Shown here: piece after piece, positions 9,068 through 18,311 of the stretch | How positions within the stretch are numbered: the first letter of the stretch is position 1 | How the letters are laid out: each line of letters opens with the position of its first letter | Assembly (NCBI GenBank): GCA_005191425.1 | Contig: SUPR01000039.1 | Span: forward strand, 1 to 29,030 | Length of the DNA: 29,030 nucleotides | Direction: 5' to 3' | Source of the DNA: Candidatus Helarchaeota ASGARD archaeon Hel_GB_B | Lineage (GTDB): Archaea > Asgardarchaeota > Lokiarchaeia > Helarchaeales > HEL-GB-B | Translations under genes and position numbers: made by a program | The notes under the pieces: generated by a model | Database searches by the model: none | Told to the model about the DNA's origin: nothing | What the model saw: the letters and a program-made list of their open reading frames with translations, nothing else

Positions 9068-12000
9068 TTAATTGATCCTTGCTTTTTTTTCTTTATAATG
9101 TTTAACAAATACAAAAGTAAAGGCAGCAATAATCGAAATAGTGGGTATTAGCACGCCAAGGAGGACATTATGAGTAATGGGTATAAGTGTGGAACCAATA
9201 GTAATTGTTGTTGCAATAAAAGCAAGGACACTCTGCCATTTTCTTAATAATTTACTTAATTTCTTAAAAAAAGAATCCGGTTCAATTAATATGTGTGATT
9301 TTCTATCTTCATCGGAAACAAATTCAGAAAATTTATATTCATTAGTCGCCGGGTCTATAATTCCGCCCAGTTTTTCGGAAGCTATAAGGTGGACGACTCT
9401 ATTTTTAACATGACTTTTTGGCACTTTGAGATTGCTACTGATCAGTCCTAAATCAATACTGACAGTACCGTAAGCGGTCTTTAAATTCTCAATATTTTTT
9501 ATTATAATTTCATCTTCCAGCATTTGGTATGATTGTTCAAATAGGTCTTTTAGACTTCCTAAATCTTTTTTAAACTTGTTAATATGGATTTCTGCCAATC
9601 TTTTAAAATCCATGCTGGACTGTTCGGAAACTTCTTTAACAAAATTATTGATTTCTTTAAGCGAATCTTTTACTGCGGTCTGAAAAACAGGTATCATATT
9701 GAGCAACTTTTTTTGGGCGAATTTCAAGTCAATTGAAATTTCGGGGAAAATAGTTTCTTCCATAGTTTCTCTAATTTTTTTAATTTCTTGGATTTTTGAG
9801 TTAATCAATTTTTCAAGTTCTTTTTCTTTTTCAGATAATAAGATATTTTTTATTTTATCCTCAATAGAATTTTTTGTGATAATGATTTGTTCATATAACA
9901 ATTCTTGCTTTTCTTTCCAGTTATCTATTAAATCACTGACCAGCATTTTGTAATATTTATTATCCTCCTTTTGGATGCTTTCTGCGATAGACATATCTAT
10001 TTCTTTTATAGAATTTATCAGGTTTTGAGTTCTAGTTTCAATTAAAGTTTTTGCTTTTCGGAGTTCTTTTTTTTCGATTAATTGTTCAATAGGTTTAGTG
10101 AATTCATTAATTTTTATTTTAAAAGTAGCGATAGAATCATTAATTAATTCCTTTAAGTCCAATCTTTTCTTTAATGTGTTATTTATTGTATTAAGGTTTT
10201 CTTGGAGTTCAGACCTAAAATTTTTCCATGTTTCAAGAATAATTTTAATGTCTACAGAATCCTTTTGGAGGTTTTTTACTTCATTTTTTATGATAGAGTC
10301 GTAATTGTTTGATTCAGCATAAATTTTCTTTATTTCACTAAAAATTTCAGAAGTAGCGGATTCCATTTGTCTTTTTTTACAGGATTTTAGATAGAAATTA
10401 TTAATGCTTTTGTTTTGAGCATTTAATTTATTTAAATATTTATTAATTTTATATTCAAAATCAATTATTTCCCTTCTTTCTGGAGTATATATTACTACTT
10501 CATCCTTATCAGAAAAATATTCGCCATCTGCAGTCCCTGATGTAATGATGTCTTTAATTCTTTTTCTAATTTCTCCAATTTTTTTGTTTAAAATTTCTTT
10601 CAATAGTTCTAATTTGACCCTTCCTTTTGGATAAAATTTTTGGTTTAGGATTATAGTTTTAATGATAATCTTGTCTAACAAATTACTATAAATTAGTTCT
10701 ATTTTGTCCTTCATATTATTTTTGAATGAATTCCATTTAAATACTTGGACATTTGCAGTATCAGTAAAATTAGGAAATTCAGATGTTGCAGATTTTAAAG
10801 ATTTATTGAACTGTTGATTATATGTAATTAGCATAGATTTTAAATAATTAAATTTATTTTCAAGTTCTTTAATTAGAAGGTCGATATTAACTTCTTTTTC
10901 AATCAAATCATCAATTGACTTCTTAAAATCATCGACCATGGTTTTAAATTCTGCGATATTTTTTTCAACTTGGTCATTAATTTTGTCTCTAAGGTTTAAT
11001 TCCTTTTGAGAGACGATCTTTTTTTCCAGGTCTTTTTTTAGGTTTACTACTTGGTTTTGCATTTGGACAATAATTTCATTTAACCAATAGTCCATTACAT
11101 CGTCAACAACATAATCAAATTTATCAATTAGATTAGACGTGTCTTTAATAAAATCTAAAATATATTTGTTAGTATTTTCCATAAATTTCAGTGCTTCTTT
11201 AGCTTTATCTTTAAGAATTCCAGCGGCAGCTTCAAAATTTTTAGCCGAAATATTTTTTTCGATTAGGGTTTCGACATTTTTAATTAATTCATCAAATTCC
11301 GATTTTTTATTTTGAATTATGTCTTTTAATTCGTCTCTTTTAAATAGTTTTGATTTTATTTCTGACAAAGTTTTTAATGAATAAGTCCTTTTATTAAGGA
11401 ATTCTCTTTCTAGCCATTTATGCAATGGTTCAAATTTAACGCCTGAAATTTCCATGTTTTCCATTAATTTGGCATTTTCTACTATTTTATTCAGTAATTC
11501 TACTTGAGTTTTTAGATTTGGAGTTAGTTGTTCTATTTCAGAGATGATTTTATCTACAGTATTGATAATTTCCTTTTTATTTTTTTCAAGAGTTTGCTCT
11601 TCGATTGATTTATAAAAAAAGTTTGTGATATCTTCCACTGAATTTTTAATTCCTTTAAGGTTTTTTTCGACAAAATCTTGAAAATCTTCAAGGTCTTTAA
11701 GAGCTTTTAAGGAAGCTTCTTTATCTTTAATTTTTAACTTAAGTTCTTTCCTAAGTTTATTTAATTCGATTCTAGTTTTTTCCAGGGTTTCAGACCAATT
11801 TTTTTCAATTTCTCTAATATAATTTTTACTTAAATATTTATATTTAGAAAATTTATTTTGGATTTCAGTATTTGATTTATTAATAAATTCCAACGCGGAT
11901 TTATATTCTTCTTCTAAATGTAAATTTGCTGCTACTACTTTATCGCAGCTGATCATATTGAAAATCTTGTTATAGATATCAGTAGGTATTTTATTCATTT

Positions 12001-13396
12001 TCTTTAGAATTTCATTAATTTCTTGTTCATCAATAGGAAATTGTTCGCGCTCTTCAATTACTTCAAAATAAGGGATGGAATTTTTAGGTCCGACTCTTTT
12101 TAGTCCCTTTTTTGGCATATAACCTCTAAATATATATTGCTCTTTTCTTAGAAATCTACCAACACTTTCAATTTTACCGATTATTATTTTTTTTTCAATC
12201 ATCATTTTTGTAATTTCGATGACTGAAGCAGATTTTATTCGAGTTGCATATTCTGTCAGGTTCAGGCGGTTATCTTTTTTTATCTTTTTAATAATTTCCT
12301 CGGCGAGTATCTGTTTTGTCCTACTTAGAGTCCTTAAAAATTCATTATAATGGTCTTGATTATCAATGATAGATGCATGAAACCATGATTTATCTTGTAA
12401 TTCCTTTACGATCAAATCAATTATATCTTCTTTTACAAAATAATTTTCATTAAGTTCCTTATAAAAGATCAATCCTTTTTCATATAACTGTTTAAGGATT
12501 TCTGCTTTTATATTCTCAGTCAAATCGTCGTAAATTATGGATATAGTCAATGTTGCATAACAATAGTCCTTTAAATCCATATCATAGAAAGATACGCTAT
12601 CATCTTTTTTATTATAAATTGATCTAATAAATTCCAAAATTCTGCCAAGATTTCTTGAATTTTTAAGCCAGTTTAAGCCAGAATATAATGTTATAATCCA
12701 AAAACTATCAGAAATTGAAGGTAAATTCCCTGAAAATTTAAATCCACCTGTATCATCCTCGAGCTCTAATAATTGATTTAAATAAAATTCATCTATTGAC
12801 TCTTTATCTCCCATTAAAAGTTTACTAAGCATACAATATATTAAATCATAATTTCTTTTAATTACTTTAACGTTCAATAATTTTCTATATTTTTCAATAT
12901 TGAGTTTTTCTTTTCGGTCTAATAATATTAATGTTGCAATACCATAAAATATTGATTCATAATTACTTTTACCTCCGCATTCAGGACAAGAGCTGTCAAA
13001 GCAATGAACAAATCCATTATTAGTTTCGTAGCTTAAAACTGAATTTGCAAATCCATCAATAGTTTTGTTTGAGTACTCTTTTAATCTGCCTAGAATTTTG
13101 AGTGAAGCTAAAGCACAGAATAAAGTTTTTAAATCGTCCTTTTTATATTCTTGGTTAAAGAATTTAAACCCTTTTAAATTATCTAAAATTAATTTTTCTA
13201 CCCTATTTGTATCAATTAAATTGAGTTTTTTGACTGAATCAAGGGCAAATATACACCAAAATGCATCTTGAATTGTTTGTATTTGGTTTAATTGGAATGC
13301 ATGAATGATTTCAGCTTGAATTTCCATAATATCCTTAGTAAAAGGATATATCCTTTTTGTATATCTCCAAAAAGGTAAAATTTTATTTCCCATCAT
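9068..13396 (-). CDS. Giant membrane-anchored helical-repeat protein: prenyltransferase/squalene-oxidase-repeat-like barrel, winged-helix (PCI-like) modules, ~7 helical repeats and 2 C-terminal TM helices
   Basis: 1442 aa ORF with AGGTG RBS. N-terminal alpha-barrel-like repeats (DAFWCIFALDSV, TLFCALASLKILG, EDDTGGF, SDSFW), long Lys/Glu/Ile/Leu amphipathic helices, PCI-like LIASEKLGGIIDPATNEYKF and two terminal hydrophobic helices. The CDS is secure; domain calls are by eye. Confidence 0.85.
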   Translation of the reverse strand: MMGNKILPFWRYTKRIYPFTKDIMEIQAEIIHAFQLNQIQTIQDAFWCIFALDSVKKLNLIDTNRVEKLILDNLKGFKFFNQEYKKDDLKTLFCALASLKILGRLKEYSNKTIDGFANSVLSYETNNGFVHCFDSSCPECGGKSNYESIFYGIATLILLDRKEKLNIEKYRKLLNVKVIKRNYDLIYCMLSKLLMGDKESIDEFYLNQLLELEDDTGGFKFSGNLPSISDSFWIITLYSGLNWLKNSRNLGRILEFIRSIYNKKDDSVSFYDMDLKDYCYATLTISIIYDDLTENIKAEILKQLYEKGLIFYKELNENYFVKEDIIDLIVKELQDKSWFHASIIDNQDHYNEFLRTLSRTKQILAEEIIKKIKKDNRLNLTEYATRIKSASVIEITKMMIEKKIIIGKIESVGRFLRKEQYIFRGYMPKKGLKRVGPKNSIPYFEVIEEREQFPIDEQEINEILKKMNKIPTDIYNKIFNMISCDKVVAANLHLEEEYKSALEFINKSNTEIQNKFSKYKYLSKNYIREIEKNWSETLEKTRIELNKLRKELKLKIKDKEASLKALKDLEDFQDFVEKNLKGIKNSVEDITNFFYKSIEEQTLEKNKKEIINTVDKIISEIEQLTPNLKTQVELLNKIVENAKLMENMEISGVKFEPLHKWLEREFLNKRTYSLKTLSEIKSKLFKRDELKDIIQNKKSEFDELIKNVETLIEKNISAKNFEAAAGILKDKAKEALKFMENTNKYILDFIKDTSNLIDKFDYVVDDVMDYWLNEIIVQMQNQVVNLKKDLEKKIVSQKELNLRDKINDQVEKNIAEFKTMVDDFKKSIDDLIEKEVNIDLLIKELENKFNYLKSMLITYNQQFNKSLKSATSEFPNFTDTANVQVFKWNSFKNNMKDKIELIYSNLLDKIIIKTIILNQKFYPKGRVKLELLKEILNKKIGEIRKRIKDIITSGTADGEYFSDKDEVVIYTPERREIIDFEYKINKYLNKLNAQNKSINNFYLKSCKKRQMESATSEIFSEIKKIYAESNNYDSIIKNEVKNLQKDSVDIKIILETWKNFRSELQENLNTINNTLKKRLDLKELINDSIATFKIKINEFTKPIEQLIEKKELRKAKTLIETRTQNLINSIKEIDMSIAESIQKEDNKYYKMLVSDLIDNWKEKQELLYEQIIITKNSIEDKIKNILLSEKEKELEKLINSKIQEIKKIRETMEETIFPEISIDLKFAQKKLLNMIPVFQTAVKDSLKEINNFVKEVSEQSSMDFKRLAEIHINKFKKDLGSLKDLFEQSYQMLEDEIIIKNIENLKTAYGTVSIDLGLISSNLKVPKSHVKNRVVHLIASEKLGGIIDPATNEYKFSEFVSDEDRKSHILIEPDSFFKKLSKLLRKWQSVLAFIATTITIGSTLIPITHNVLLGVLIPTISIIAAFTFVFVKHYKEKKARIN

Positions 13397-13538: not shown

Positions 13539-14816
13539 TTATACATCAATTAAAATATCTTTACTATTTGGAATTATATAAATGGATTTAACCCCTTTAT
13601 TTTTAATGATTTTATTAATTTTTATATTTAATTCTTTTTCATTTTTTATATAATTTAATTGGAACTTATTTATAACTTCATCTTTAGGTAAGTTGGAATA
13701 AAGATATATATTAGGAGTCTGTTTTTTTGCTAGCAACAAATAATAAACTTTATGTCCTCCCATCTTGAAGTTAGTTTGGACTTGGGCAGACACTTTTTCA
13801 AAGGTGTTATATTTTATCATCCATTCATTAAAAACTTTATGTCCCACACCTTCTTTACATTCCGCGAGAAAAAATATATAACCGTTATTTTTCACAGCTC
13901 TTCTGCAATGTTCTATTCCTTTTAAAGCTTGATATAAGTTAATATCCTTGGGATATCCACCTGCACTTATAATAATCATATCTGCTTTTGAATTTAACTT
14001 TATTCTATAATTTTTATCATAAATTTTCACTGCTTCCAAAAAGGCGTCGCCCAATGCGCCTGCCTTTATGTCTAATATTTGGTCATCCACTGTTTTAACA
14101 ACATTAACGACAAAGTCCACGCCTGCGCGTTTTGCGGCTTCCATCATATCTAGGTGAACTGGATTATTTTCTAAATTCCCTGTAAATGAGTTTGGGTCAA
14201 CTAACATAGCGTGGTTCCGATTAATTGACTTTTGTGAAGAAACACCTGGAAGGACTGATTTTCTATCTCCACCAAAACCTGCATAATAATGATATTCTAC
14301 ATCTGTCAGTAAAATTCGGACATCTGCATTTAAATATTCCTCATTTATTTCAATTGGAGTCCCGCGTTTTGTCTCGCCCAAAAATCTAAATTTAGATTCA
14401 TTAATATTATTAAAAGAGAAATTATAGCCGTCCAAAATGTTTTTACCATTTATAGTAAAAAGAGCATTTAAATGATCTAGAGTAGGTTCACTATGAGTAC
14501 CACACCCCATAATAAACGATATATTTTTCTTCTCAATACCCAATTGGTCTAATTTTTCTAATATTGGTGGGATAATCATTCGATTTGGGAATTTTCTGGT
14601 ATAATCATCAATTACAAAAACAATCTTTTTATTTTCTCCGGACACAATCTCTGAAAATGGTTTTGAATTAATTGGATATTCTAATGCATTTTCCAATAAT
14701 CTTAAATAATCGTCAACCGGCTTTACCTTTTTAGGGTTTATTTTATCGACTCTAATATTCTCTATTTCAATGGATATTTCCAGCTCTCTATTGCCAAATG
14801 GTATTTTGTATTTCAT
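13539..14816 (-). CDS. larA: LarA-family nickel-pincer-nucleotide-dependent 2-hydroxy acid racemase/epimerase
   Basis: DDYTR, GCGTH, HYYAGFGGDRK, NH, GGYPKDINLYQALKG. These match the conserved LarA Asp/Arg, His, His/Lys, His and Gln/Lys positions. Substrate not determined. Confidence 0.9.
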   Translation of the reverse strand: MKYKIPFGNRELEISIEIENIRVDKINPKKVKPVDDYLRLLENALEYPINSKPFSEIVSGENKKIVFVIDDYTRKFPNRMIIPPILEKLDQLGIEKKNISFIMGCGTHSEPTLDHLNALFTINGKNILDGYNFSFNNINESKFRFLGETKRGTPIEINEEYLNADVRILLTDVEYHYYAGFGGDRKSVLPGVSSQKSINRNHAMLVDPNSFTGNLENNPVHLDMMEAAKRAGVDFVVNVVKTVDDQILDIKAGALGDAFLEAVKIYDKNYRIKLNSKADMIIISAGGYPKDINLYQALKGIEHCRRAVKNNGYIFFLAECKEGVGHKVFNEWMIKYNTFEKVSAQVQTNFKMGGHKVYYLLLAKKQTPNIYLYSNLPKDEVINKFQLNYIKNEKELNIKINKIIKNKGVKSIYIIPNSKDILIDV

Positions 14817-17126: not shown

Positions 17127-18311
17127 ATGACAAATATGATGTCAGAAGAAACAACTGTATTATCAGAAGAAAAAATAAATGAATTACTCAAAATTAAAGG
17201 GATTTATGACCCAAATTATATTCGTAATCTCCCAATTATTTCATTAAAAGAGGTCACGCCAAATATCAATAAATCTTTGGCTAAAATATTTGATATCCAC
17301 AAAATTAATGATTTAGCCAATCTTACGATTTCCGAAGATAAAAAGAAAGAATTAGAAGACGAAGGAATTAGCTACGAAGAACTTCAAAAATGGATTATAG
17401 CCTCTAAATTATTGACTAATACAGAAGTTCTTGAAAATAAAATAGAACGACAAAAGGGTAAAAAAATAGTATTCGTTGGTCTTGAGAATGCAGGTAAAAC
17501 TGCGATTATTCAGACAATTACAAAAAATACAACAATTGATACAATATCAAATTTAGAACCTACAATTACAATAGACAGAAAAACGTTCGTAATTGATGAC
17601 AATAAACTAATTATGTGGGATTTCGGTGGTCAAAAAGAATATCGTGAACAATATCTTAAAAACCCTGAGAGGTATTTTTTAGAAATAGATGCCTTAATTT
17701 TTGTAATTGATATTCAAGAAAGTGAGAAATTCGACGAAGCATTAAATTACTTAAAAAATATTCTAAGTATTTTGGATTATCTAAAAGAAAACCCCGAAAA
17801 AATTATATTATTACATAAAGCAGACCCAGATATTATCTGTACAGAGCAAATTATTACATCAATTGACGAGCTTCAAACAAAAGTTGCTAAAATTATGAAT
17901 AATAAAGCATATTCAATTTTTGCAACAAGTATATTTAATGCAGTCCCACAATCAAATGACATTATAAAAGCATTAAAAGAAATGGGAACTATTAAAAAAG
18001 AATGTACTTCTAAACCAAAATTAACTAATGAGGATTTGGCTGAGACGTTAGACCGATCATTAACGATTTTTGTTAAATTAAGTACGTATATTGAAGAAAA
18101 ATTAAATGATATATATGGCAGACTGACAAATCTAGAAAATTTGGTCTTGGGGATTGTAGATAATTTTATAAAAAATGGAAATATGAATGGTGAAAATAGT
18201 TATCAAATATTGCATCAGCCAGAAATGGTAGAGAAAAAAGTTGCAGCACAAAAAAGCGCAATACACGATGAATTGAAAAAAATTTTTAGTGTTAAAAAAA
18301 TAGAAGATTAA
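17127..18311 (+). CDS. Arf/Rag-like small GTPase with N-terminal helix-hairpin-helix-like domain and C-terminal helical extension
   Basis: G1 GLENAGKT, G2 EPT, G3 WDFGGQ, G4 HKAD, G5 TSIF. The N-terminal LPIISLKEVTPNINKSLAKIFDIHKINDLA resembles HhH/DUF4332-type domains. Confidence 0.88.
   Translation: MTNMMSEETTVLSEEKINELLKIKGIYDPNYIRNLPIISLKEVTPNINKSLAKIFDIHKINDLANLTISEDKKKELEDEGISYEELQKWIIASKLLTNTEVLENKIERQKGKKIVFVGLENAGKTAIIQTITKNTTIDTISNLEPTITIDRKTFVIDDNKLIMWDFGGQKEYREQYLKNPERYFLEIDALIFVIDIQESEKFDEALNYLKNILSILDYLKENPEKIILLHKADPDIICTEQIITSIDELQTKVAKIMNNKAYSIFATSIFNAVPQSNDIIKALKEMGTIKKECTSKPKLTNEDLAETLDRSLTIFVKLSTYIEEKLNDIYGRLTNLENLVLGIVDNFIKNGNMNGENSYQILHQPEMVEKKVAAQKSAIHDELKKIFSVKKIED

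What the first reader, a model, noticed from the sequence alone, without database searches (positions are those of the whole stretch)
9470..12030. Hidden ~110-aa Trp-marked repeat: a possible spectrin-like rod in the 1442-aa protein
What looks like plain coiled coil has an aromatic at matching positions: W534, W661, W771, W888, W1057, W1160 and F1275. Spacings are 127, 110, 117, 169, 103 and 115, and the 169 gap contains a ~55-aa winged-helix-like insert. The units resemble each other, for example DLKELINDSIATFKIKINEFTKPIEQLIEKK, DKINDQVEKNIAEFKTMVDDFKKSIDDLIEKE and ELKDIIQNKKSEFDELIKNVETLIEKNISAK. Each ends in D/E-x-W...I/L..KI. Units of about 106 aa with three helices and a conserved Trp are the hallmark of spectrin/plakin repeats, and EzrA shows a bacterial analogue. 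This suggests a membrane-anchored cytoskeletal spacer or tether tens of nanometres long. Homology to spectrin is not established.
Basis: partly seen in the sequence, partly recalled or inferred. Interest (0 to 1): 0.75.

Follow-up and report, generated by a model that had tools for sequence, protein, structure and literature searches.

The report
Spectrin-like seven-repeat rod, Asgard archaea
A 1442-residue membrane-anchored protein of a Lokiarchaeia-type Asgard archaeon really contains seven hidden, very diverged copies of a ~110-residue repeat marked by one tryptophan. Each copy is predicted to fold into a three-helix bundle, joined end to end as in spectrin, but no sequence kinship to spectrin can be shown and the function is unknown.

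Summary
All six Trp of the helical region, plus F1275, fall in one column of a seven-fold repeat (units at aa 445-549, 550-676, 677-786, 787-903, 973-1072, 1073-1175, 1176-1290). The units are only 8-21% identical. Even so, unit profiles match each other in register (hhalign probability up to 98%, E down to 1e-14; reversed-profile controls score 12-25 against 25-80). A leave-out HMM also finds the untrained units ahead of every other ORF in the genome.

AlphaFold2 folds one unit as a three-helix bundle (pLDDT 96). It folds the whole region as serial bundles, with helix C running on into the next helix A at 4 of 6 junctions. The only natural multi-repeat matches are spectrin, plakin and alpha-actinin repeats (Z 9.6-13.3).

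Membership in the spectrin family is not shown. There is no Pfam Spectrin hit, and the marker Trp lies in helix C, not helix A.

The family is single-copy, has seven units in each of the 15 full-length homologues aligned, and was found in 42 of 43 sampled genomes of one Asgard class and in no other class. The same unit occurs in two or three other protein architectures. It directly precedes a PCI-type winged helix in P0001 and in two paralogues. The scan had already found this family in four other genomes.

Most likely role: a cytoplasmic, membrane-anchored spacer or scaffold about 35-40 nm long.

The parts
9068..13396 (-). Whole gene, 1442 aa (P0001): toroid head, winged-helix region, seven-unit rod, PCI-like winged helix, membrane hairpin
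   Evidence: ORF list and translation. Full-length homologues of 1394-1494 aa occur in Asgard MAGs.
12497..13396 (-). aa 1-300: prenyltransferase-like alpha/alpha toroid. It lies outside the finding and is the distal head of the rod.
   Evidence: Pfam PF00432 E 6.5e-6, 26.2 bits, just under the 26.5 cut-off. The paralogue P0030 passes at 2.7e-16.
12065..12496 (-). aa 301-444: linker and winged-helix-like region between the head and the rod. Not modelled here.
Evidence: The unit HMM has no significant hit here and Pfam finds nothing significant.
11750..12064 (-). Repeat unit 0, aa 445-549 (marker W534)
   Evidence: Unit HMM 446-548, E 4.5e-17. hhalign to units 2, 5 and 6 gives probability 87-94%. 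Predicted helices 443-483, 487-517 and 524 onward.
11369..11749 (-). Repeat unit 1, aa 550-676 (marker W661). It has a variable, low-confidence loop at 646-657.
   Evidence: Unit HMM 564-675, E 7e-18. hhalign to unit 4 gives 95% and to unit 5 gives 90%. Homologues carry a 16-column insertion after aa 652.
11039..11368 (-). Repeat unit 2, aa 677-786 (marker W771)
   Evidence: Unit HMM 680-786, E 2.7e-23. hhalign to units 3, 5 and 6 gives 96-98%. Predicted helices up to 717, then 721-756 and 760-791.
10688..11038 (-). Repeat unit 3, aa 787-903 (marker W888). This is the unit modelled alone.
   Evidence: AF2 on the pooled 112-row alignment: pLDDT 96.2, pTM 0.85, helices 790-834, 838-873 and 877-902. 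hhalign to unit 6 gives 98.3%, E 1.6e-14.
10481..10687 (-). aa 904-972: extension of helix C followed by an inserted winged-helix domain between units 3 and 4
   Evidence: The rod model shows helix to aa 921, then helix-helix-strand-strand at 929-969. Orthologues give weak PCI and HTH hits at the same place.
10181..10480 (-). Repeat unit 4, aa 973-1072 (marker W1057)
   Evidence: Unit HMM 973-1071, E 1.6e-15. hhalign to unit 1 gives 95%. Predicted helices 972-1007, 1011-1040 and 1048 onward.
9872..10180 (-). Repeat unit 5, aa 1073-1175 (marker W1160; W/F/Y in orthologues)
   Evidence: Unit HMM 1071-1171, E 1.1e-19. The leave-out HMM, trained without this unit class, finds it at 2.2e-8.
9527..9871 (-). 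Repeat unit 6, aa 1176-1290 (marker F1275; W in 10 of 17 orthologues)
   Evidence: Unit HMM 1181-1289, E 6.6e-17. Predicted helices up to 1222, then 1224-1260 and 1263-1309.
9317..9526 (-). aa 1291-1360: PCI-like winged helix next to the membrane
   Evidence: Pfam PCI E 8.8e-4, 19.9 bits, under the cut-off of 22. The model shows strand-helix-helix-strand-strand at 1313-1355. The equivalent domain in paralogue P0030 passes the PCI cut-off (29.2 bits).
9092..9241 (-). aa 1386-1435: two hydrophobic helices joined by a short T-H-N turn, forming the membrane hairpin anchor
   Evidence: Read from the sequence, with Lys/Arg-rich flanks on both sides. The model shows helices 1376-1408 and 1411-1440. 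The cytoplasmic orientation of the bulk of the protein is inferred from the positive-inside rule and the lack of a signal peptide.

Best explanation
Residues 445-1290 consist of seven anciently duplicated, strongly diverged copies of a ~100-117-residue domain. This domain is specific to Lokiarchaeia-type Asgard archaea.

Each copy is predicted to be an antiparallel three-helix bundle with helices of about 30-45 residues. A near-invariant aromatic residue, usually Trp, sits at a core heptad position early in the third helix. At four of the six junctions the third helix of one bundle is predicted to run straight on as the first helix of the next. This gives a segmented rod with the architecture of spectrin, plakin and alpha-actinin repeats.

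The rod is interrupted once by an inserted winged helix. It ends in a PCI-type winged helix and a two-helix membrane hairpin. It carries winged-helix modules and a prenyltransferase-like toroid at its far end.

My reading is that the protein stands on the cytoplasmic face of the membrane as a spacer or scaffold about 35-40 nm long. The bundles would set the distance and offer unit-specific docking surfaces. The PCI-type winged helices would mediate assembly with other proteins.

What is shown: the repeat, its register, its conservation and its distribution.
What is predicted: the fold and the helical junctions.
What is inferred: the topology, the length and the scaffold role.

The likeness to spectrin is architectural, and common descent is not demonstrated.
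For: Repeat:
- In-register profile-profile matches between units, with reversed-profile controls.
- A leave-out HMM ranks the untrained units above all other ORFs of the genome.
- The marker column holds W or F in 105 of 111 pooled units.
- The unit HMM gives full-length hits at E 1e-8 to 1e-15 in proteins that were not used to build it (P0030, P0031, the L014 ORF and the L011 ORF).

Fold:
- AF2 on a single unit gives pLDDT 96.2 and pTM 0.85, with three helices.
- An independent natural alignment gives the same helix boundaries, and long continuous helices 524-599, 658-717, 1048-1098 and 1149-1222 that span unit borders.
- Pro and Gly are five times commoner in the predicted loops, and the long insertions fall in loops.
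- The hydrophobic 3-4 spacing in all three helices places the Trp at a core position.

Tandem geometry:
- Plectin SR3-4: Z 13.3, 200 of 205 residues.
- Beta2-spectrin: Z 12.3, 278 of 301 residues.
- Plectin SR7-9: Z 11.9, 268 residues.
- Alpha-actinin R2-3: Z 9.6, rmsd 4.0 A, 233 of 248 residues (all).
- Single spectrin repeats: Z 9-11 over 105-112 residues.

Conservation:
- The same seven units occur in all 15 full-length homologues.
- Each unit is as conserved as the toroid head, 0.38-0.43 against 0.41.
- The family was found in 40 of 40 and 2 of 3 genomes of two families of one class, and in none of about 157 genomes of other classes.

Anchor: two hydrophobic helices with basic flanks.
Against: Everything structural is predicted, not measured.

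The Z-scores of 9-13 lie in the range where, by the tool's own note, helical bundles can match by common arrangement alone. Designed three-helix bundles, BAG, SPX, RRF domain I and syntaxin Habc tie with spectrin for the single unit.

The pTM of the whole rod is 0.52, so the relative orientation of the bundles, and hence straightness and length, is uncertain.

AF2 run on a monomer can fold sequences into bundles that really pair between chains.

No conserved gene neighbourhood or partner supports any specific function.

HMM-to-sequence cross-detection is uneven. The HMM from units 2, 3, 5 and 6 finds unit 0 only at E 0.05 and does not find units 1 and 4.
Confidence: 0.7

Rival explanations
1. 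The repeats are true, very distant homologues of eukaryotic spectrin repeats. That would make them an unrecognised eukaryotic signature domain already present in Asgard archaea. This rival concerns ancestry and is compatible with the predicted structure above.
For: The unit length matches, with 109 HMM positions against 105 in Pfam Spectrin. The three-helix topology and the continuous helix C to helix A connector also match. Spectrin-family entries are the only natural multi-repeat matches, and they cover nearly whole targets. The host lineage is Asgard.
Against: No Spectrin hit appears for any rod at E up to 10. The six-frame PF00435 search of the genome gives 14.6 bits, E 0.11, in this gene, and all 14 control genomes also gave only hits below the family cut-off. 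Only 3 of 112 units touch a nesprin spectrin model, at E 0.003 or weaker, among 340 equally weak families. The conserved Trp is in helix C here but in helix A in spectrin. The family is confined to one class rather than being spread over the Asgard lineages. Three-helix bundles arise easily by convergence.
Confidence: 0.1
2. The region is really a long intermolecular coiled coil, as in SMC or Rad50 arms or in golgins, and the bundles are an artefact of modelling a single chain.
For: The composition is Lys/Glu/Ile/Leu/Asn-rich with heptad-like spacing. Weak Pfam noise hits go to coiled-coil families. The scan found one archaeal protein with '105-residue periodicity' that turned out to be an unbroken coiled coil (e1-2779911; an unchecked note).
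Against: The 100-117-residue repeat has two short loops at fixed, Pro/Gly-enriched positions. The long insertions fall in those loops. The model from the pooled alignment reaches pLDDT 96 and pTM 0.85 as a closed bundle. Two different alignments give identical helix boundaries. A conserved bulky Trp sits in the core. A winged helix is inserted exactly at a unit border.
Confidence: 0.08
3. The helical region is the extended helical-repeat arm of a PCI protein, as in proteasome-lid, COP9 and eIF3 subunits, rather than a rod of bundles.
For: Foldseek on the rod model lists Rpn, CSN and eIF3 PCI subunits with probability up to 0.96 and E about 1e-3. A PCI-like winged helix follows the last unit here and in two other architectures.
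Against: Those matches have TM-scores of 0.08-0.24 and rmsd of 19-36 A. The predicted helices are 30-76 residues long, unlike the ~15-20-residue hairpins of TPR-like PCI arms (established knowledge). The exhaustive aligner puts spectrin-type tandem repeats first.
Confidence: 0.05

Closest known systems
Spectrin repeats (Pfam PF00435; spectrin, alpha-actinin, dystrophin, plakins)
   Same: The units are about 105-110 residues long. Each is an antiparallel three-helix bundle. Helix C is predicted to continue into helix A of the next unit. An aromatic core residue recurs once per unit. The copies are strongly diverged (8-21% identity) while each unit is conserved between orthologues. These are the best multi-repeat structural matches.
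   Different: No detectable sequence similarity. The marker Trp is in helix C, not helix A. There is no actin-binding CH domain, EF hand or SH3. The host is archaeal. The rod is interrupted by a winged helix.
Nesprins / KASH proteins (tail-anchored spectrin-repeat linkers)
   Same: The overall logic is the same: a functional head, a long rod of three-helix repeats and a C-terminal membrane anchor, with the bulk of the protein in the cytoplasm (the comparison rests on established knowledge; the anchor is seen).
   Different: The anchor here is a two-helix hairpin with no KASH peptide. The head is a prenyltransferase-like toroid rather than CH domains. There are only seven units. No homology is shown.
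EzrA (bacterial membrane-anchored spectrin-like repeat protein, PF06160)
   Same: It is a prokaryotic, membrane-anchored, cytoplasmic protein built from spectrin-like three-helix repeats (established knowledge). One unit gives a sub-threshold EzrA hit, E 1.8e-4 and 20.4 bits against a cut-off of 39.6.
   Different: The hit is below the cut-off, and EzrA is not among the 25 families that most of the 112 units match. EzrA is anchored at its N-terminus and has five repeats and no toroid, winged-helix or PCI modules. It was not among the top 50 structural matches.
PCI-domain scaffold subunits (proteasome lid, COP9 signalosome, eIF3; PF01399)
   Same: A helical region is followed by a PCI-type winged helix. 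Foldseek gives probabilities up to 0.96. The PCI model passes its cut-off in paralogue P0030.
   Different: P0001's own PCI score is under the cut-off (19.9 against 22 bits). The helical part is made of long three-helix bundles, not a TPR-like solenoid. The protein is membrane-anchored.
Syntaxin/Vti1 Habc, BAG domain, RRF domain I and designed three-helix bundles
   Same: They share the single-unit fold at similar scores, Z 9.8-11.8.
   Different: These are single bundles. None forms tandem arrays joined by continuous helices, and none matches more than one unit of the rod model.

Membership tests
Spectrin repeat (PF00435) | Sequence match to the family profile above its curated cut-off (29.9 bits) | tested here: not met
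   The rods of P0001, P0007, P0022 and P0030 give no Spectrin hit at E up to 10. The six-frame search of the genome gives at best 14.6 bits, E 0.11, in this gene, and no hit in the genome or in the 14 control genomes reaches the cut-off.
Spectrin repeat (PF00435) | Unit of about 106 residues folding as an antiparallel three-helix bundle | tested here: met
   Units are 100-117 aa long with 109 HMM positions. The AF2 model has pLDDT 96.2 and three helices. It matches spectrin repeats at Z 9-11 and rmsd 3.0-3.9 A over 101-112 residues. This rests on prediction only.
Spectrin repeat (PF00435) | Helix C of one repeat continuous with helix A of the next | tested here: met
   Continuous predicted helices 524-599, 658-717, 1048-1098 and 1149-1222 span 4 of the 6 junctions. 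The other two are a short break at 792-796 and a winged-helix insert. Two- and three-repeat superpositions on plectin, beta2-spectrin and alpha-actinin agree. This rests on prediction only.
Spectrin repeat (PF00435) | Conserved core Trp in helix A | tested here: not met
   The conserved Trp lies in the third helix, 3-12 residues after its start. No comparably conserved aromatic is seen in helix 1. The spectrin position is taken from PMC13133991.
EzrA (PF06160) | Profile match above the cut-off (39.6 bits) | tested here: not met
   The only EzrA hit seen, for unit 3 of P0001, has 20.4 bits and E 1.8e-4. EzrA is not among the 25 families matched by most units.
EzrA (PF06160) | Structural similarity to the EzrA repeat arch | tested here: inconclusive
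   EzrA is not among the 50 rows shown for either model.
PCI domain (PF01399) | Profile match above the cut-off (22 bits) at the C-terminal winged helix | tested here: inconclusive
   P0001 scores 17.5-19.9 bits, below the cut-off. Orthologues carry precomputed PF01399 hits, and paralogue P0030 scores 29.2 bits. The predicted fold is a winged helix.
Tail-anchored spectrin-repeat linkers (nesprin/KASH) | C-terminal KASH peptide after a single transmembrane helix, binding SUN proteins | tested here: not met
   The C-terminus is a two-helix hairpin that ends in 11 mostly basic residues, with no luminal peptide. SUN partners were not searched for.

The most novel reading that the evidence does not exclude
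The Trp-marked unit could be the archaeal relative of the eukaryotic spectrin repeat. The toroid-rod-PCI protein, together with its HEAT-type and soluble paralogues that share the unit and the PCI winged helix, could then form a membrane-attached skeleton or tethering complex in Lokiarchaeia. That would be a prokaryotic forerunner of spectrin- or nesprin-type membrane skeletons.
Probability: 0.08. Interest if true: 0.9.

Novelty: new variant of a known kind. Interest (0 to 1): 0.6.

Why it matters
As far as I know, spectrin-type rods of serial three-helix bundles are regarded as a eukaryotic invention, with EzrA as a rare bacterial analogue. My paper searches found none described in archaea.

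Here a domain with that architecture, but from a new sequence family, forms the core of a large protein. The protein is single-copy in nearly all sampled genomes and has seven units in every full-length homologue aligned. It occurs in almost every sampled genome of one class of Asgard archaea, whose named members are labelled Helarchaeota, Lokiarchaeota and Promethearchaeota.

If the prediction holds, these archaea have a membrane-anchored molecular ruler or scaffold of about 35-40 nm. It would carry PCI-type assembly modules of the kind known from eukaryotic complexes. That bears on how their membranes are organised from the inside. It also gives a concrete, expressible object for testing whether spectrin-like mechanics arose before eukaryotes or by convergence.

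The unit is also a reusable module in at least two other architectures, which points to a small lineage-specific toolkit.

Tried and rejected
- Sequence searches of the whole protein and of the pooled unit profile against Pfam, NCBIfam and PDB gave only compositional noise: designed helical bundles, apolipoproteins and assorted coiled-coil families.
- Foldseek against PDB for the single unit found nothing at E <= 0.001.
- The ESM Atlas shape search gave unrelated helical proteins. The Atlas feature search gave no usable hit.
- hhalign's self-comparison mode returned no rows, so units were compared pairwise instead.
- A homodimer prediction of aa 973-1360 in two copies returned 'no answer' (score 0.00). 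It says nothing either way.
- Gene neighbourhood gave no lead. The close relative L001 is syntenic (LarA-like, DHH, M50), but the distant relatives L002 and L003 share no neighbours.
- An Arf/Rag-like GTPase lies next to the gene in L002 and 3.7 kb away in the window. In five other genomes none of the listed Arf hits is closer than about 4.5 kb, and each genome has 46-72 such genes, though 136 further matches were not listed. I therefore rejected the linkage as chance.
- The search for related loci with the alignment failed because no conserved stretch was available. With P0008 it returned a single locus.
- A single-protein search of 201 genomes found only 2 matches. This was a sensitivity problem that the profile search corrected.
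- Paper searches ('Asgard' + 'spectrin'; 'spectrin-like' + 'archaea'; 'Asgard' + 'PCI domain') found no description of this family.

Full report
**The object.** The finding lies inside one gene, window 9068-13396 on the minus strand. It encodes 1442 residues (P0001). The coordinates 9470-12030 correspond to residues 456-1309. The window has 23-35% G+C. Every homologue that carries a name comes from Asgard metagenome-assembled genomes labelled Helarchaeota, Lokiarchaeota, Promethearchaeota or Hodarchaeota.

Pfam sees only two things. One is a borderline prenyltransferase alpha/alpha toroid at the N-terminus (26.2 bits against a cut-off of 26.5). The other is a sub-threshold PCI winged helix near the C-terminus. 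NCBIfam and a PDB sequence search add nothing.

**Checking the observation.** The Trp positions are exactly as reported. Residues 534, 661, 771, 888, 1057 and 1160 are the only Trp between residues 339 and 1386, and F1275 is present. I cut the region at the markers and compared the pieces.
- With the single sequence, several pairs scored far above shuffles (z up to 6.6).
- With profiles from 17 homologues, most of the 21 unit pairs aligned in register with the marker. Eleven pairs had probability 87-98%, and E-values reached 1.6e-14. The same comparisons against column-reversed templates scored 12-25, against 25-80 forward.
- An HMM trained only on units 0, 1 and 4 was searched against all 5245 ORFs of 80 aa or more in the genome. 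It recovered units 5 (2e-8), 3 (8e-5) and 2 (7e-3) as its best non-training hits.

In a pooled alignment of 112 units the marker column is the most conserved one: W 85, F 20, Y 3, L 3. In orthologues position 1275 is usually W. The units of P0001 are only 8-21% identical to each other, which is why the repeat is hidden.

The unit HMM cuts P0001 into exactly seven domains: 446-548, 564-675, 680-786, 793-903, 973-1071, 1071-1171 and 1181-1289. The proposed 'D/E-x-W' detail is not conserved.

**Fold.** I pooled all units as one alignment and modelled unit 3 (aa 789-903). AlphaFold2 gave pLDDT 96.2 and pTM 0.85, with three helices at 790-834, 838-873 and 877-902.

A second model covered residues 440-1442 and used the natural 17-row alignment. 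It gave pLDDT 82.8 and pTM 0.52, and reproduced those boundaries. It shows this pattern:
- Helices 443-483, 487-517 and 524-599.
- Helix 603-645, then a low-confidence loop at 646-657.
- Helices 658-717, 721-756 and 760-791, then a break at 792-796.
- Helices 797-834, 838-873 and 877-921.
- A helix-helix-strand-strand winged helix at 929-969.
- Helices 972-1007, 1011-1040, 1048-1098, 1101-1142, 1149-1222, 1224-1260 and 1263-1309.
- A winged helix at 1313-1355.
- Two hydrophobic helices at 1376-1408 and 1411-1440.

So at four of six junctions the third helix of one unit is continuous with the first helix of the next. Each marker Trp lies 3-12 residues into the third helix.

Evidence that does not depend on the model agrees. 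Pro plus Gly are five times more frequent in the predicted loops (0.095 against 0.018). The long insertions in homologues fall in loops. All three helices show 3-4 hydrophobic spacing, with the Trp at a core position.

**Structural neighbours.** For the single unit, Foldseek found nothing significant. The exhaustive aligner listed many spectrin repeats at Z 9.0-11.0 and rmsd 3.0-3.9 A over 101-112 residues. These are tied with designed three-helix bundles, BAG, SPX, RRF domain I and similar folds.

The rod model is more telling, because the only natural proteins that align over more than one unit are spectrin-family tandems:
- Plectin SR3-4: Z 13.3, 200 of 205 residues.
- Beta2-spectrin: Z 12.3, 278 of 301 residues.
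- Plectin SR7-9: Z 11.9, 268 residues.
- Desmoplakin: 289 residues.
- Alpha-actinin R2-R3: Z 9.6, rmsd 4.0 A, 233 of 248 residues.

By the tool's own note, these scores fall in the range where helical repeats can match by arrangement alone. I therefore read them as 'same architecture', not as proof of kinship. Foldseek on the rod model instead lists PCI subunits of the proteasome lid, COP9 and eIF3 (probability up to 0.96). Those have TM-scores of 0.08-0.24 and very large rmsd. I attribute them to the pattern of a helical region followed by a winged helix.

**Is it a spectrin repeat?** Two architectural criteria are met in prediction: the unit length and bundle fold, and the continuous helix C to helix A junction. 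Two criteria fail.
- No sequence match. There is none at E up to 10 for four rods. The six-frame PF00435 search gives only a below-cut-off hit of 14.6 bits here, and the 14 control genomes likewise gave only below-cut-off hits. A handful of weak nesprin and EzrA hits sit among 340 equally weak families.
- The Trp position. The conserved spectrin Trp is in helix A (PMC13133991), while this one is in helix C.

I therefore file the domain as a new sequence family with spectrin-like architecture. I put true homology at about 10%.

**Distribution and relatives.** The family is small, with 17 clusters at 50% identity. All 15 full-length members have the same seven units plus the insert.

A profile search of 201 genomes of the phylum found the family in 40 of 40 and 2 of 3 genomes of two families of the window's class. 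The full-length gene is mostly single-copy, with open frames of about 1470-1500 residues. No rod match turned up in any of the roughly 157 genomes of other classes. The one hit there was a weak match to the winged helix. Each unit is as conserved between orthologues as the toroid head, so the rod is not a relaxed spacer.

The unit also occurs outside this family:
- A 1246-residue soluble paralogue with a toroid, about 5-6 units and a PCI domain that passes Pfam's cut-off.
- Proteins of about 990-1030 residues with N-terminal HEAT repeats, 2-3 units and a weak PCI.
- A 952-residue ORF with about four units.
- In the window's own genome, a 415-residue ORF with one C-terminal unit behind a weakly Roadblock-like domain.

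**Mechanism.** The C-terminal hairpin has basic residues on both flanks, and there is no signal peptide. I therefore infer that the bulk of the protein is cytoplasmic. Seven bundles whose middle helices have 30-43 residues, at 0.15 nm per residue, give roughly 35-40 nm if the rod is extended. The low pTM leaves the joints undetermined.

I commit to a membrane-anchored spacer or scaffold (confidence 0.7 for the structural part, about 0.5 for the role). The bundles would set distance and offer unit-specific surfaces. The Trp would lock the third helix into the core near each junction. The PCI-type winged helices would be assembly points. The toroid-plus-winged-helix head would be held far from the membrane. 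A cytoskeletal role is possible but untested.

No conserved neighbour helps. The Arf-like GTPase seen nearby is a chance neighbour. A homodimer prediction gave no answer.

**Prior notes and literature.** The scan had already met this family in four other genomes. Follow-up agents there also described a membrane-anchored rod with a prenyltransferase-like head, and two of them noted spectrin-like repeats. These are unchecked AI notes. My tests here were made independently and agree. I found no description in the searchable literature.

**Verdict.** The structural interpretation is supported at the level of prediction. Spectrin membership is not supported. This is a new sequence family and protein architecture built on a known kind of fold.

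Noticed in passing
L013:1356-4436 (+) = G008:C5, protein P0031, 1026 aa: This paralogous architecture has N-terminal HEAT repeats (Pfam HEAT 3e-15, HEAT_2 4e-13), then 2-3 copies of the Trp-marked unit (E 2e-8 and 2e-6), a weak PCI winged helix and a strand-rich C-terminal ~150 aa with no family. Proteins of similar size (968-1036 aa) that carry the unit occur in several genomes of the class. The layout recalls adaptin-like proteins, but this was not tested.
   Followed up: partly
L012:629-4369 (+) = G144:C2, protein P0030, 1246 aa: This soluble paralogue has a clear prenyltransferase toroid (PF00432, 2.7e-16), about 5-6 units and a PCI domain above Pfam's cut-off (29.2 bits). Its C-terminal ~150-aa domain has no Pfam hit, and there is no transmembrane segment.
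   Followed up: partly
L011:550-1797 (+) = G000:C36:35327-36574, 415 aa, same genome as the window: This small protein carries one Trp-marked unit at its C-terminus (aa 318-410, E 4e-8). Its N-terminus gives weak Roadblock/LC7 and MP1-like hits (E 0.02-0.07, below the cut-offs).
   Followed up: partly
window 11330-11390 (-), aa 669-689: The junction of units 1 and 2 carries a cluster of basic and other residues that are invariant in the 8-sequence alignment (K669, L677, I680, S682, K683, K686, R687, E689). It is one of the most conserved stretches of the rod and may be a docking site.
   Followed up: no
window 12977-13006 (-), aa 131-140: An invariant His-Cys...Cys..Cys cluster (H131, C132, C137, C140) lies within the toroid head. 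It looks like a small metal-binding knuckle and was already noted by another first-stage finding.
   Followed up: no
window 17127-18311 (+): A 394-aa protein has an Arf/Rag-like GTPase domain (Gtr1_RagA 2e-23, Arf 7e-23) at residues 100-271. A similar gene sits next to the rod gene in L002, but the adjacency is not conserved in five other genomes, each of which has 46-72 Arf-like genes.
   Followed up: yes
L002:12431-20410: Downstream of the distant orthologue P0007 lie two ScpB-like genes, another Arf-like GTPase and an SMC gene. This was not seen at the other loci examined.
   Followed up: no
window 13539-14816 (-): A LarA-like gene (lactate racemase N- and C-terminal domains, 2e-49) lies directly upstream on the same strand. 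It is syntenic only in the closest relative, L001.
   Followed up: partly
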